DNA from: a virus
UHGV virus genome: UHGV-0098755
Length of the DNA stretch: 64,000 nt
Direction: 5' to 3' (one strand)
In this document: piece after piece, positions 8,367 through 10,712 of the stretch
Position numbering within the stretch: position 1 is the first letter of the stretch
Layout: the number at the start of each line of letters is the position of its first letter
The notes under the pieces: model-generated
What the model saw: the letters and a program-made list of their open reading frames with translations, nothing else
The model's database searches: none
What the model was told of the DNA's origin: nothing
Program-made: the position numbers and the translations under genes

Positions 8367-8507
8367 TTACCATACTAGTGAATGTAGTGCCATAATAACA
8401 TCAGAAATGAAAAGCACGACTTGAATTAATCCGAACATTACTCCATAATATAGTGCTACCAATAAAGCAGCAAGGGCTACTGAGTAGCCCAAGATTTTCT
8501 TAATCAT
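8367..8507 (-). CDS. Membrane micro-protein (46 aa), 52.1 position
   Basis: Hand-translated MIKKILGYSVALAALLVALYYGVMFGL... Confidence 0.4.
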   Translation of the reverse strand: MIKKILGYSVALAALLVALYYGVMFGLIQVVLFISDVIMALHSLVW

Positions 8508-8655
8508 TAGATAACAACGCAAATGTTAAATATGCACACATACCCTGAGCTAAAGCTTGCGAAAACACGCTGCTGACATCAATACAGATAGTTAAAACAC
8601 ATGCTACTATCCAACAAATAAATGAAATAACTCCTAATAATTTTGCGATATTCAT
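8500..8655 (-). CDS. ac: Ac-like membrane protein (51 aa)
   Basis: 51-codon hydrophobic ORF with GAGG SD, between stp and 52 as in T4. Confidence 0.5.
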   Translation of the reverse strand: MNIAKLLGVISFICWIVACVLTICIDVSSVFSQALAQGMCAYLTFALLSND

Positions 8656-8662
8656 ATTTTCC

Positions 8663-8743
8663 TCACTGGCGTCCGAAGACGCCTTTAGTTTTAAGATTAT
8701 TACGATAGAACTGCATCACGTGTTCGTTATGGAAATTACTCAT
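8663..8743 (-). CDS. stp: Stp peptide (26 aa), activator of the PrrC anticodon nuclease
   Basis: Hand-translated [26 protein letters not shown]; start overlaps ndd stop (UAAUG). Confidence 0.75.
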
Positions 8744-9201: not shown

Positions 9202-9261
9202 ATTAATTTCCTCTAAATTATTTTCTACTCCAAGGCCGCATGAATACACACGGCCATTAAA

Positions 9262-9477
9262 TTAATCATCGCAGTCGACGCTTAATTCCCAGAACTCTTC
9301 TACAGTATAAGTTTCAGTATCATTTTCAATACAGAAACGTTCATTACTATTATTTGCTAAAGTAGCATTAACTGTCGGTTTCTCGCTAGTGCTCTTAAGA
9401 GGTGAAATACGAATTAACTGATCACCGTTATCTAAACAAAAAATTTCACCAACTTTTACATCTTTAAAACTTTTCAT
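9262..9477 (-). CDS. Hypothetical protein (71 aa), ndd.x
   Basis: ORF. Confidence 0.5.
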   Translation of the reverse strand: MKSFKDVKVGEIFCLDNGDQLIRISPLKSTSEKPTVNATLANNSNERFCIENDTETYTVEEFWELSVDCDD

Positions 9478-9592
9478 AATTCACCTCAGGGAGTATAAAA
9501 TCCAAATGCAGTTGTTGACCATCCCATCCAATATGGAAAATTTGCGCCAATGTAAAACATAAGAATATAAAACCAAATGTTTAGTAAATTCA

Positions 9593-9811
9593 TCATTTTA
9601 CACCATTCCAAATTGTTTCAACTACGGATTTTAAACCATTTTGATGAATATCAATTCCGACTACTGTCATCAAATAGATTCCAACCACAACTGAACCCAA
9701 GGCAAAAATCAGCATGAAAATGAATAAAGCTGGAAAAATATTATCGAAAAACCATTCCATAAATGTAAAAGCACTGCGTTTACGCTTCATATTTTCCTCA
9801 CATAAATCCAA
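9593..9811 (-). CDS. Small membrane protein (72 aa)
   Basis: Two hydrophobic segments. Confidence 0.45.
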   Translation of the reverse strand: MDLCEENMKRKRSAFTFMEWFFDNIFPALFIFMLIFALGSVVVGIYLMTVVGIDIHQNGLKSVVETIWNGVK

Positions 9812-9911
9812 AGTAAGCGTTTAATACATCAATCATTAAAACGATTGGGAATATACTCAAAACTACTAGTATTATAACTACATTCCATATAGCTTTAACA
9901 ATCTTTTTCAT
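9798..9911 (-). CDS. Membrane micro-protein (37 aa); ORF-track N-terminal extension is translated promoter
   Basis: MKKIVKAIWNVVIILVVLSIFPIVLMIDVLNAYFGFM with SD; promoter element immediately upstream. Confidence 0.4.
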   Translation of the reverse strand: MKKIVKAIWNVVIILVVLSIFPIVLMIDVLNAYFGFM

Positions 9912-10153
9912 TTCTGTTCCTCCGTAGTTGATAGGGTAATAATACCACAGAGGAACAGTCTTGTAAACAACTTTTTTAAAAATATTCGTAATAAATGTGA
10001 ATACCAACTACTACTGCTGAAACTTGTACAACCCACCATGCACAAGCAATAAGTACAGAATTCAAAATTTTCATAATAACCTCATCACAAAAGTAAATGT
10101 TAAACAAATTACTGGAATACTAATTAACCAAACAAAACACCACCATAATGAAC

Positions 10154-10426
10154 TCATAGTTCAATCTCAGCGATTTTCATTTCATTACTATTAATAGCCG
10201 CTTTAAGACTATCTGAAAGAATTACATTCCAGTGGTCATTCATATGACCATTGACTAAGCGTGTAATTTCTTCGGGAGTTGAAAAATAAGGCGTATCAGA
10301 CTCCCAGTGCGATAGTCCCAAGCGAGTATAAATCATACCTTCATCATCGCTAGAATATTCAACTGACACAAACTCATCAGTTATTTTATGTTTAGCGTAA
10401 TAAAATTTAAATTTCATTTTACTCAA
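10154..10426 (-). CDS. Hypothetical protein (90 aa)
   Basis: ORF. Confidence 0.5.
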   Translation of the reverse strand: MSKMKFKFYYAKHKITDEFVSVEYSSDDEGMIYTRLGLSHWESDTPYFSTPEEITRLVNGHMNDHWNVILSDSLKAAINSNEMKIAEIEL

Positions 10427-10629
10427 TAATCCGCTAAAAGATCGACGATTGCATCACGAAGACACTTATTCGCAATACGTTTAAGAGCAATTTCAGTTTC
10501 TGGGGCATTTTGAATAATCATTGAATTCAATTCAGCCTCAGCAAACTGAAGTTCTTTAACTAATTCAGCTTTATATTTTCCTTGTCCTTTCTTAGCTTTT
10601 GCTCGTTTTAGTTCAGCTGTAGTAAACAT
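10423..10629 (-). CDS. Hypothetical protein (68 aa from MFTTAELK)
   Basis: ORF-track 102-aa version reads through the promoter repeat. Confidence 0.5.
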   Translation of the reverse strand: MFTTAELKRAKAKKGQGKYKAELVKELQFAEAELNSMIIQNAPETEIALKRIANKCLRDAIVDLLADY

Positions 10630-10654: not shown

Positions 10655-10712
10655 GATAGTTGTATAGTACCACAGTCCTTGTGGTATGTAAACCGTTTTG
10701 TGAAAAATTTTT
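10655..10712 (-). promoter_or_regulatory. Early promoter, conserved repeat family
   Basis: GTTTAC at 10688-10693 (RC), spacer palindrome TACCACAGTCCTTGTGGTA. Confidence 0.55.

What the first reader, a model, noticed from the sequence alone, without database searches (positions are those of the whole stretch)
9262..10150. Cluster of tandem hydrophobic micro-ORFs (about 30-70 aa) between ndd and denB
At least five short, strongly hydrophobic ORFs lie head-to-tail on the - strand: 9593-9811, 9798-9911, a roughly 36-aa ORF ending near 9594 (MMNLLNIWFYILMFYIGANFPYW...), and two of about 30 aa between 10010 and 10150 (MKILNSVLIACAWWVVQVSAVVVGIHIYYEYF; MSSLWWCFVWLISIPVICLTF...). Several have their own SD and an early promoter. 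Most fall below the ORF-track cutoff. Small membrane peptides made immediately after infection are candidates for targeting membrane defence or exclusion systems.
Basis: seen in the sequence. Interest (0 to 1): 0.5.

Follow-up and report, generated by a model that had tools for sequence, protein, structure and literature searches.

The report
T4 ndd.2–ndd.6 membrane micro-gene cluster
The five tiny hydrophobic reading frames are real, conserved, early-transcribed phage genes, but they are the already annotated T4 genes ndd.2 to ndd.6, whose function is still unknown and which T4 can lose without harm on laboratory hosts.

Summary
The window is a T4-like phage (Tequatrovirus, at most 96.6% identical to any record). 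The finding is the T4 interval ndd.1–ndd.6.

Five hydrophobic ORFs of 28–65 aa tile the minus strand from 9486 to 10157. They use SD sites or ATGA stop/start overlaps, and a conserved T4-type early promoter lies inside the cluster. The tiling is not chance: 0 of 2000 shuffles reach the observed coverage. In 18 Tequatrovirus sequences the frames are intact, with pN/pS of 0.1–0.2 in the annotated frame for four of the five (ndd.4 hardly varies) and about 1 in most off-frame comparisons. Homologues recur between denB and ndd in six other Tevenvirinae genera, in different combinations.

Each ORF already has its own PHROG of unknown function, and the 65-aa one is Pfam DUF7248. Published T4 data class the transcripts as early, do not detect the peptides by mass spectrometry, and find every gene dispensable. 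No defence screen names them.

The likeliest role is accessory single-pass inner-membrane microproteins acting on the host envelope. The target is unknown. The anti-defence idea is neither supported nor excluded.

By-products: the T4 reference genes ndd.3 and ndd.2a are a one-base artefact splitting one 65-aa gene, and the annotated ndd.4 start is probably wrong.

Verdict: already known, low-to-moderate interest.

The parts
10664..10692 (-). Early-type promoter-like site (TTTACA-17-TACTAT with upstream TG) ahead of the first gene of the transcription unit
   Evidence: sequence read. Same GTTTACA...TGGTA architecture as the promoter at 9939-9967.
10423..10629 (-). X2: 68-aa hydrophilic gene (phrog_4535). 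Absent from T4 and variably present in Tequatrovirus.
   Evidence: Present in RB32, RB3 and T2; absent from most other genomes sampled.
10154..10417 (-). X1: 87-aa hydrophilic gene (phrog_2390). Absent from T4. Its stop overlaps the ndd.6 start (ATGA).
   Evidence: Homologues precede Ndd.6 in Dhakavirus and Mosigvirus; VR7 has X1 but no Ndd.6 was found there.
10071..10157 (-). ndd.6: 28-aa hydrophobic microprotein (phrog_8851)
   Evidence: The WC..W...IP(V/M)IC core is conserved in Dhakavirus and Mosigvirus.
9976..10074 (-). ndd.5: 32-aa hydrophobic microprotein (phrog_5011), found only in Tequatrovirus
   Evidence: pN/pS 0.12; 491 records, all at least 90% identical.
9939..9967 (-). Conserved T4-type early promoter (GTTTACA-17-TGGTATTAT) driving ndd.4 and the genes after it
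   Evidence: -35, -10 and the GGAGG SD conserved in 18 genomes. The same segment matches other places in T4-like genomes.
9798..9911 (-). ndd.4: 37-aa single-TM microprotein (phrog_3098), the most widely conserved member
   Evidence: (601 records). Invariant KAIW juxtamembrane motif.
9593..9790 (-). 65-aa gene, Pfam DUF7248 / phrog_2401. It corresponds to T4 'ndd.3' plus 'ndd.2a' merged. Basic N-terminus, one TM segment, conserved C-terminal GLKSVVxxIWxG helix.
   Evidence: pN/pS 0.13; 69.7 bits; one helix, residues 4-64, pLDDT 90.
9486..9596 (-). ndd.2: 36-aa aromatic-rich hydrophobic microprotein (phrog_4135). Its ATG overlaps the stop of the 65-aa gene.
   Evidence: (pN/pS 0.20).
9262..9477 (-). 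ndd.1: 71-aa soluble protein (phrog_2183, PF26909).
   Evidence: (pN/pS 0.09). Detected as an early protein in T4. AF2 model is all-beta but low confidence.
9234..9255 (-). Conserved GC-rich hairpin (GGCCGUGUG-UAUU-CAUGCGGCC) between ndd.1 and ndd, with no U-run
   Evidence: z = -2.5. Stem changes in other genomes mostly keep pairing.

Best explanation
The cluster is the Tequatrovirus gene set ndd.6, ndd.5, ndd.4, ndd.2a/3 (one 65-aa gene) and ndd.2.

Shown:
- The genes are transcribed on the minus strand as part of two early transcription units.
- They are translated through their own SD sites or by ATGA stop/start coupling.
- They encode 28-65-aa peptides under purifying selection.

Inferred:
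- Each peptide inserts into the host inner membrane as a single helix.
- For Ndd.4 and the DUF7248 protein, the basic N-terminus probably faces the cytoplasm and the C-terminus the periplasm.
- They have no room for catalysis. Their invariant residues sit in short juxtamembrane amphipathic motifs (KAIW in Ndd.4, GLKSVVxxIWxG in DUF7248).
- They therefore most likely work by binding host inner-membrane proteins or lipids soon after infection, in the way bacterial small membrane proteins modulate larger partners.
- They are accessory: useful in some hosts or conditions, dispensable in the laboratory.

Candidate phenotypes:
- The only unassigned phenotypes mapped to this interval in T4 are membrane ones. 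Loss of the post-infection stimulation of phospholipid, especially phosphatidylglycerol, synthesis is one. Acridine hypersensitivity of the sa deletions is the other.
- Those deletions remove about 14 genes, so the link to these particular peptides is a hypothesis.
For: Identity with T4 ndd.1-ndd.6:
- Synteny and sequence match the T4 annotation.
- Every ORF hits its own PHROG at E 2e-17 to 6e-29.
- The 65-aa ORF scores 69.7 bits against DUF7248, whose cut-off is 27.

The ORFs are real coding sequence:
- The tiling exceeds all 2000 shuffles.
- Frames are intact in nearly all of 18 Tequatrovirus sequences.
- pN/pS is 0.09-0.22 in frame for five of the six ORFs and about 1 or more in most off-frame comparisons.
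- Conserved homologues occur in Dhaka-, Gapriver-, Kanagawa-, Karam-, Jiaoda- and Mosigvirus.

Membrane character:
- The best 19-aa Kyte-Doolittle windows score 2.3-3.05 for four of the five.
- AlphaFold2 predicts one continuous helix for the 65-aa protein, pLDDT 90.
- Basic residues cluster at the N-terminus in all homologues read.

Early expression:
- The promoter and SD are conserved.
- T4 RNA-seq classes ndd.2-ndd.6 as early (PMC9697503).

Accessory status:
- CRISPRi-ART scores them 'Not Fit' (PMC11879866).
- Transposon insertions are tolerated (10.1101/2025.11.20.689424).
- T2 carries a natural nonsense codon in the 65-aa gene.

Membrane phenotypes of the interval:
- The sa-delta-9 deletion (52.1 through denB) abolishes phospholipid stimulation. 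The phage still yields about 50% of wild-type burst (PMC6071114).
Against: - No peptide of ndd.2-ndd.6 was detected in the T4 time-course proteome (class NA). Tiny hydrophobic peptides are expected to escape tryptic mass spectrometry, so this is weak evidence.
- Membrane insertion and topology are inferred from sequence only.
- Ndd.2 is only moderately hydrophobic (best window 1.29) and carries no charges to orient it.
- No host partner is known.
- The lipid and acridine phenotypes have never been mapped below a 3.4-kb deletion that also removes ac, 52.1, stp, ndd and denB.
- ndd.4 shows too little variation for a pN/pS estimate.
Confidence: 0.55

Rival explanations
1. Counter-defence. One or more of the peptides neutralise a membrane-associated abortive-infection, exclusion or sensor system of particular hosts by binding its membrane component.
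For: - They sit in a hyperplastic accessory region flanked by known host-interaction genes: rIIA/B against RexAB, and stp acting on PrrC.
- They are early and dispensable on K-12.
- Gene content differs between genera in a mix-and-match way, and Ndd.5 is genus-specific.
- PeSL-mediated exchange has been described at exactly ndd.4/ndd.5 (PMC4122927).
Against: - T4 transposon screens against RexAB, RnlAB, CBASS, DarTG1 and DarTG2, and on uropathogenic isolates, name other genes and no ndd.x gene.
- One conditional table read in the supplement shows adjusted P = 1.0 for all of them.
- Sequences are strongly conserved rather than diversifying.
- The only defence-library match (Ndd.4 to KwaA, E 0.0085) is not reproduced by six homologues.
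- Only a handful of defence systems have been tested.
Confidence: 0.25
2. Superinfection-exclusion or lysis-timing accessories. The peptides act like T4 Imm/Sp or the RI/RIII/holin network, altering DNA entry of secondary phages or the timing of lysis.
For: They have the same general form as Imm: small, early, inner-membrane (own knowledge of T4 biology). Membrane character is shown and early class.
Against: - There is no sequence relation to Imm, Sp, RI or holin families. Pfam and PHROG searches return only the ORFs' own families.
- By established T4 genetics, exclusion and lysis-inhibition phenotypes are accounted for by imm, sp, rI, rIII and t.
- No plaque-morphology phenotype is reported for deletions of this interval.
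Confidence: 0.07
3. Membrane tether for Ndd. A conserved neighbour such as Ndd.4 anchors the nucleoid-disruption protein, and thus host DNA, at the inner membrane.
For: - Ndd.4 or another TM microprotein lies within about 1 kb upstream of ndd in every genus examined.
- Nuclear disruption moves host DNA to the cell periphery (T4 annotation note).
- Because ndd is itself non-essential, the lack of a fitness phenotype says nothing against this.
Against: - Ndd is detectable in 1080 phage records against 601 for Ndd.4, although the search for a 37-aa query is much less sensitive.
- Mosigvirus Mizar has ndd but no Ndd.4.
- From memory of the literature (Bouet et al. 1998), cloned ndd alone disrupts the nucleoid.
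- General T4-like synteny makes neighbourhood weak evidence.
Confidence: 0.05
4. Translation matters, the peptides do not. The ORFs serve only as coupled leader ORFs that deliver ribosomes to, or stabilise the mRNA of, ndd.1 and ndd. Alternatively, they are chance ORFs in T-rich DNA.
For: - ATGA overlaps and stop codons embedded in the next gene's SD show tight translational coupling.
- The coding strand is 41% T, which favours hydrophobic codons.
Against: - Amino-acid sequences are under purifying selection in frame, but not in most off-frame comparisons.
- Specific residues and motifs are kept at 40-60% identity across genera.
- The tiling exceeds all shuffles that preserve composition.
- No Rfam family and no unusually stable RNA fold was found.
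Confidence: 0.04

Closest known systems
Bacteriophage T4 genes ndd.2, ndd.2a/ndd.3, ndd.4, ndd.5, ndd.6 (NC_000866 166325-166996)
   Same: Same position, order, strand, promoter and about 92-100% identical peptides. They fall in the same PHROGs. These are orthologues.
   Different: - Here the 65-aa gene is intact, whereas the T4 reference splits it into ndd.3 and ndd.2a (a one-base error).
- This phage has two extra genes (X1, X2) between ndd.6 and denB that T4 lacks.
Pfam DUF7248 (PF23906)
   Same: The 65-aa protein matches almost end to end (residues 5-63) at 69.7 bits against a cut-off of 27.
   Different: The family has no known function. It is narrow: 7 hits at E up to 1e-3 among 1.84 billion representatives, of which about four look like true family members.
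T4 Ac and gp52.1 (neighbouring small membrane proteins) and Stp (26-aa peptide)
   Same: - They are small early peptides in the same deletable 52-rIIB interval.
- Homologues lie at window 8500-8655, 8367-8522 and 8663-8743.
- Ac and Stp act by perturbing host components rather than by catalysis (annotation notes).
   Different: There is no sequence similarity. Ac and Stp have genetic phenotypes, while ndd.2-ndd.6 have none.
T4 Imm (superinfection immunity membrane protein)
   Same: A small early inner-membrane protein of the same phage (own knowledge).
   Different: No similarity was detected. Imm is longer with two TM segments and has a defined exclusion phenotype.
Bacterial small membrane-protein regulators (e.g. 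AcrZ, MgrB, MgtS; own knowledge)
   Same: They are under about 50 aa with a single TM helix, have no enzymatic potential, and act by binding a larger membrane protein. This is the working model adopted here.
   Different: This is only a functional analogy. There is no homology, and no partner is known for the phage peptides.
PeSL (promoter-early stem-loop) shuffling cassettes of T4-like hyperplastic regions (PMC4122927)
   Same: - The cluster lies in such a region.
- The paper illustrates an exchange at ndd.4/ndd.5 between T4 and PST.
- The promoter segment recurs elsewhere in T4-like genomes.
   Different: PeSLs explain how the genes move, not what they do. No stem-loop adjoining the 9939-9967 promoter was seen here.

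Membership tests
T4 ndd.2-ndd.6 orthologue set (PHROGs 4135, 2401, 3098, 5011, 8851) | Significant full-length match of each ORF to the family profile | tested here: met
   E = 6.2e-24, 6.1e-29, 3.1e-21, 1.6e-25 and 1.6e-17, each covering the whole peptide.
T4 ndd.2-ndd.6 orthologue set (PHROGs 4135, 2401, 3098, 5011, 8851) | Same order and strand between ndd and denB as in T4 | tested here: met
   The order ndd.6-ndd.5-promoter-ndd.4-65aa-ndd.2-ndd.1-ndd is identical.
T4 ndd.2-ndd.6 orthologue set (PHROGs 4135, 2401, 3098, 5011, 8851) | Reading frames maintained by selection in relatives | tested here: met
   Frames are intact in nearly all 18 sequences. pN/pS is 0.12-0.22 for four of the five; ndd.4 is too invariant to estimate.
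Pfam DUF7248 (PF23906) | Score at or above the curated gathering threshold (27 bits) | tested here: met
   69.7 bits, E 2.1e-19, residues 5-63 on profile positions 3-57 of 58.
Single-pass inner-membrane microproteins (functional class) | One hydrophobic stretch long enough to span the bilayer in a peptide of 65 aa or fewer | tested here: met
   the best 19-aa Kyte-Doolittle windows are 2.29-3.05 for four peptides; Ndd.2 is borderline at 1.29; a single helix is predicted for the 65-aa protein.
Single-pass inner-membrane microproteins (functional class) | Demonstrated membrane insertion and topology | not testable with these tools
   Only the positive-inside rule could be applied to the sequences.
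Single-pass inner-membrane microproteins (functional class) | Binds and modulates a larger membrane protein | not testable with these tools
   No interaction data exist and no multimer prediction was available.
Phage anti-defence proteins | Loss of the gene sensitises the phage to a defined defence system | not testable with these tools
   Published T4 screens name no ndd.x gene, but few systems were tested.
Phage anti-defence proteins | Homology to a characterised anti-defence family | not tested
   No anti-defence profile library was available. Pfam, PHROGs and NCBIfam gave only families of unknown function.
T4 Imm / Sp / RI / holin membrane proteins | Sequence similarity to those families | tested here: not met
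   no match to any such family at E up to 0.01 (PHROGs) or 1 (Pfam).
Kiwa KwaA (PADLOC PDLC00208) | Reproducible profile match across the Ndd.4 family | tested here: not met
   the window Ndd.4 gives 13.8 bits, E 0.0085, over a TM segment. T4 Ndd.4 and five homologues from other genera give no match.
Bacterial lipoprotein signal peptide (considered for Ndd.5, which GenBank records label 'outer membrane protein') | Lipobox preceded by a basic n-region and an adequate h-region | tested here: inconclusive
   Sequence read. L-I-A-C is present at residues 8-11, but only 10 residues precede the Cys, and the remaining 21 residues are themselves hydrophobic. No predictor was available. A plain TM helix is the simpler reading.

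The most novel reading that the evidence does not exclude
The denB-ndd interval of Tevenvirinae is a mix-and-match cassette of inner-membrane microproteins. The families are Ndd.4, DUF7248, Ndd.6, Ndd.2 and Ndd.5. Their conserved juxtamembrane amphipathic motifs (KAIW and GLKSVVxxIWxG) would dock onto host inner-membrane enzymes or transporters. On this reading they are the long-missing genes behind two unassigned T4 phenotypes. One is the stimulation of phosphatidylglycerol synthesis after infection. The other is the acridine hypersensitivity of the sa deletions.
Probability: 0.15. Interest if true: 0.55.

Novelty: already known. Interest (0 to 1): 0.25.

Why it matters
These peptides belong to the large set of T4 early genes with no known function. 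They are conserved across at least seven genera of T4-like phages, yet no function, partner or phenotype has been assigned to any of them.

If one of them explained how T4 reprograms host phospholipid synthesis or membrane permeability, a question open since the late 1960s would become testable with single-gene deletions. If one disarmed a membrane-bound defence, it would add a new type of inhibitor.

As it stands, the finding rediscovers annotated hypothetical genes. The practical gains are:
- Corrected gene models: one 65-aa gene instead of ndd.3 plus ndd.2a, and a 37-aa ndd.4.
- Evidence that the frames are under selection.
- A map of which families occur in which genera.

Tried and rejected
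- **KwaA match.** Ndd.4 matched Kiwa KwaA in PADLOC (E 0.0085). I rejected it because T4 Ndd.4 and five homologues give nothing. It is a TM-composition match.
- **RNA element instead of genes.** No Rfam family reaches threshold in the whole window. The ndd.4 mRNA folds no better than shuffles (z -0.73).
- **Deep homology for the 65-aa protein.** The word-indexed search found only close relatives. Exhaustive phmmer over 1.84 billion representatives found 7 hits. One is a tape-measure-like protein whose repeats resemble the C-terminal motif; I treated this as convergent amphipathic-helix similarity.
- **Other libraries.** NCBIfam, PDB sequences and Pfam gave nothing informative for the other peptides.
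- **Structure of Ndd.1.** The model has pLDDT 61, too low for a fold search, so none was run.
- **IMG/VR loci.** Only 5 came back, so comparative work used GenBank phage records.
- **Literature.** Searches on the gene names mostly hit 'NDD' neurodevelopmental papers. The Miller 2003 T4 genome review is not held. A non-T4 anti-defence screen and a phiKZ transposon paper were irrelevant.
- **Lipoprotein reading of Ndd.5.** Considered and left inconclusive.
- **Internal MotA middle promoter in ndd.4.** By eye, only a 5/6 box with no usable -10. Dropped.
Full report
**What the window is.** A 2.6-kb stretch around the finding matches 525 phage records, nearly all T4-like (Tequatrovirus). The best is 96.6% identical. 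Against the T4 reference annotation, the finding is the interval ndd.1–ndd.6 between ndd and denB. It lies in the deletable region between gene 52 and rIIB.

**Observation check.** On the minus strand I find the following:

| Gene | Coordinates | Length | Note |
|---|---|---|---|
| ndd.6 | 10071-10157 | 28 aa | |
| ndd.5 | 9976-10074 | 32 aa | |
| ndd.4 | 9798-9911 | 37 aa | |
| 65-aa ORF | 9593-9790 | 65 aa | ATG start |
| ndd.2 | 9486-9596 | 36 aa | |
| ndd.1 | 9262-9477 | 71 aa | hydrophilic |

- Four of the five small peptides have a 19-residue Kyte-Doolittle window of 2.3–3.05. Ndd.2 is weaker at 1.29.
- GGAGG or GAGG precedes ndd.4, ndd.5, the 65-aa ORF and ndd.1.
- ndd.6, ndd.5 and ndd.2 start on ATGA overlaps with the preceding stop codon.
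- Two promoter-like sites with the T4 early architecture lie at 9939-9967 and 10664-10692. In the first, the -35, the extended -10 and the SD are conserved in 18 genomes.
- ATG-started ORFs of at least 25 aa (six, one of them probably spurious) cover 99% of the 672-nt stretch, against 31% on average in dinucleotide-preserving shuffles. None of 2000 shuffles reach this.
- With strict criteria, the 64-kb window holds ten SD-preceded hydrophobic micro-ORFs. Three of them fall within this half kilobase.

**Conservation within the genus.** I aligned the window with 17 other Tequatrovirus sequences.
- All six frames are intact in almost every genome.
- Counting distinct variants, pN/pS in the annotated frame is 0.22 (ndd.6), 0.12 (ndd.5), 0.13 (65-aa), 0.20 (ndd.2) and 0.09 (ndd.1). 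The two shifted frames mostly give about 1 or more.
- ndd.4 is almost invariant even at synonymous sites. It has one synonymous variant where about 13 are expected (P about 3e-5), and its nucleotide diversity is 0.016 against 0.029–0.064 for its neighbours. I cannot explain this. There is no unusual RNA fold.
- The exceptions confirm that the genes can be lost. T2 has a nonsense codon at position 45 of the 65-aa gene in two independent records. One genome has a split ndd.1.

**Conservation beyond the genus.** Reading the same interval in other genera shows a mix-and-match set of membrane micro-genes.

| Genus (example) | Content between denB and ndd |
|---|---|
| Dhakavirus (JS10, MX01) | Ndd.6 and Ndd.4 |
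| Gaprivervirus (VR7) | Ndd.4 and a DUF7248 protein |
| Kanagawavirus (Kosakonia phage 305) | Ndd.4 and a probable Ndd.2 |
| Karamvirus (EnA02) and Jiaodavirus (JD18) | Ndd.4-like and DUF7248 |
| Mosigvirus (Mizar) | unannotated Ndd.6 plus an unrelated 36-aa TM ORF, no Ndd.4 |

The tblastn counts in 50,697 phage records are below. Each family is single copy.

| Family | Records |
|---|---|
| Ndd.4 | 601 |
| Ndd.6 | 648 |
| DUF7248 | 645 |
| Ndd.2 | 519 |
| Ndd.5 | 491, all at least 90% identical, so genus-specific |

The matches below 60% identity have weak E-values. For Ndd.6, synteny in JS10, MX01 and Mizar supports them. The distant Ndd.2 hits were not checked. Alignments show that the invariant residues are not the TM cores but the short flanking motifs. 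These are K-x-x-x-KAIW at the N-terminal edge of Ndd.4 and GLKSV..(I/L)W.G at the C-terminus of DUF7248.

**Database status.** Each ORF has its own PHROG, all of unknown function or carrying only localisation labels such as 'periplasmic protein' and 'outer membrane protein'. The 65-aa protein is Pfam DUF7248, and Ndd.1 carries PF26909. NCBIfam, PDB and PADLOC give nothing meaningful. An exhaustive profile-free search of 1.84 billion representatives finds only seven hits for the 65-aa protein, so the family is narrow.

**What is known experimentally in T4.**
- RNA-seq classes ndd.2–ndd.6 as early. The proteome detects Ndd.1 early but none of the micro-peptides (PMC9697503 supplement).
- CRISPRi-ART knock-down scores every ndd.x gene as 'Not Fit' (PMC11879866 supplement).
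- Saturating transposon mutagenesis scores them non-essential. The defence, medium and clinical-isolate screens in that study name other genes (10.1101/2025.11.20.689424).
- The sa-delta-9 deletion removes 52.1, ac, stp, ndd, ndd.1–6 and denB. It abolishes the post-infection stimulation of phospholipid synthesis yet gives about half the normal yield. The authors state that the products of ndd.1–ndd.6 are unknown and that several are thought to be membrane proteins (PMC6071114).
- The region is a recognised hyperplastic region, and an exchange at ndd.4/ndd.5 has been attributed to promoter-stem-loop recombination (PMC4122927).

**How it most likely works.**
- Shown: these are selected, early-transcribed coding sequences for very small hydrophobic peptides.
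- Inferred: each forms one inner-membrane helix. Basic residues cluster at the N-termini of Ndd.4 and DUF7248 in every homologue read, and their C-terminal flanks are neutral or acidic. By the positive-inside rule this gives N-in/C-out. AlphaFold2 predicts one uninterrupted helix for the 65-aa protein.
- A natural in-frame fusion exists in Shigella phage Sf25. It joins the Ndd.4 N-terminus and TM to the DUF7248 C-terminal half. This is at least compatible with the two sharing a topology.
- Peptides this small cannot be enzymes, and their most conserved parts are interfacial amphipathic segments. I therefore favour binding and modulation of host inner-membrane proteins or lipids.
- The unassigned membrane phenotypes of the sa deletions are the obvious candidates, but this link is a hypothesis.
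- The GenBank labels 'outer membrane protein' and 'periplasmic protein' are old localisation predictions. The recurring label 'naphthalene 1,2-dioxygenase' is a propagated error.

**Rivals.**
- Counter-defence remains plausible on context alone, but nothing tested supports it.
- Superinfection exclusion or lysis control, and a role as a membrane tether for Ndd, are possible but weaker.
- A purely regulatory or chance origin is contradicted by frame-specific selection and cross-genus motif conservation.

**Novelty and verdict.** The feature is real and correctly seen, but it is already annotated in T4 and in hundreds of relatives. It is also already known to be early and dispensable, and its function is an acknowledged unknown. 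I rate it 'already known', interest 0.25.

**Corrections that fall out of the analysis.**
- The T4 reference (NC_000866) lacks one G in codon 2 of the 65-aa gene compared with two independently sequenced T4 genomes. 'ndd.3' and 'ndd.2a' are therefore an artefactual split of one gene.
- The annotated 42-aa start of T4 ndd.4 lies in what is really the GGAGG SD. The upstream ATG is ACG in 17 of the 18 genomes.
- T4 has lost two genes (X1, X2) that this phage keeps between ndd.6 and denB. Other Tequatroviruses keep one or the other.

Noticed in passing
window 9593-9790; L002 4433-4629 (NC_000866 166432-166628): The T4 reference splits this 65-aa gene into 'ndd.3' and 'ndd.2a' because it lacks one G in codon 2. 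Two independently sequenced T4 genomes (OZ209057, OL964735) have the intact 198-nt ORF, so the reference gene models are an artefact.
   Followed up: yes
window 9911-9930; L002 4751-4765: The annotated T4 ndd.4 start (42 aa, MEEQKMKK...) uses an ATG that is ACG in 17 of 18 Tequatrovirus sequences and overlaps the conserved GGAGG SD. The 37-aa start is almost certainly the real one.
   Followed up: yes
window 10154-10629: Two hydrophilic genes (X1, 87 aa; X2, 68 aa) sit between ndd.6 and denB and are absent from T4. T4 shows a clean junction (…ENKM|KIAEIEL). Most relatives keep only X1; RB32, RB3 and T2 keep only X2; this phage and ECO07P2 keep both. X1 is conserved into Dhaka-, Gapriver- and Mosigvirus.
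   Followed up: partly
window 9798-9911: ndd.4 has a marked deficit of synonymous variation among 18 Tequatroviruses: 1 variant against about 13 expected, with the lowest nucleotide diversity in the interval. No stable RNA fold explains it. Homogenising recombination next to the promoter is one possibility.
   Followed up: partly
P0006 (Shigella phage Sf25 gp120): This is a natural in-frame fusion of the Ndd.4 N-terminus and TM with the C-terminal half of the DUF7248 protein. It carries both PF26889 and PF23906.
   Followed up: partly
L011 and L026 (phage T2, two records): T2 carries a TGA at codon 45 of the 65-aa gene. This removes the conserved C-terminal motif and amounts to a natural knockout in a classical laboratory phage.
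   Followed up: yes
window 9234-9255: A conserved GC-rich hairpin sits between ndd.1 and ndd and has no U-run (z -2.5). Stem changes in other genomes mostly preserve pairing. It may be a processing or stabilising element rather than a terminator.
   Followed up: partly
P0045 (820-aa metagenomic protein); window 9593-9640: The C-terminal motif LKSVVETIWNGVK resembles the roughly 11-residue repeats (…KSVVSTVWNGIK…) of a tape-measure-like protein. The N-terminus of Ndd.4 (KAIWN) is similar. This is probably a convergent amphipathic helix.
   Followed up: no
window 9907-9972; L021 2501-2555: The early-promoter segment upstream of ndd.4 matches second and third places in the same T4-like genomes. 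It also matches an intergenic site in Klebsiella phage PKO111, consistent with the repeated promoter elements (PeSLs) proposed to drive cassette shuffling.
   Followed up: partly
window 8367-8743: Downstream of ndd lie three more micro-genes: stp (8663-8743, 26 aa), ac (8500-8655, 51 aa, TM) and a 52.1-like ORF (8367-8522, TM). One or two small TM ORFs follow ndd in every other genus read as well.
   Followed up: partly
GenBank records: Ndd.1 and other genes of this interval are labelled 'naphthalene 1,2-dioxygenase' in many phage and even E. coli records. The micro-peptides are labelled 'outer membrane protein'. Both look like propagated misannotations.
   Followed up: no
L027 1526-1612 (Escherichia phage Mizar): An unannotated 28-aa Ndd.6 homologue (MSSKMWIGIWLLSIPMICIIFSIVLRYL) is ATGA-coupled to the X1 homologue. 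This shows that these micro-genes are often missed by annotation pipelines.
   Followed up: yes
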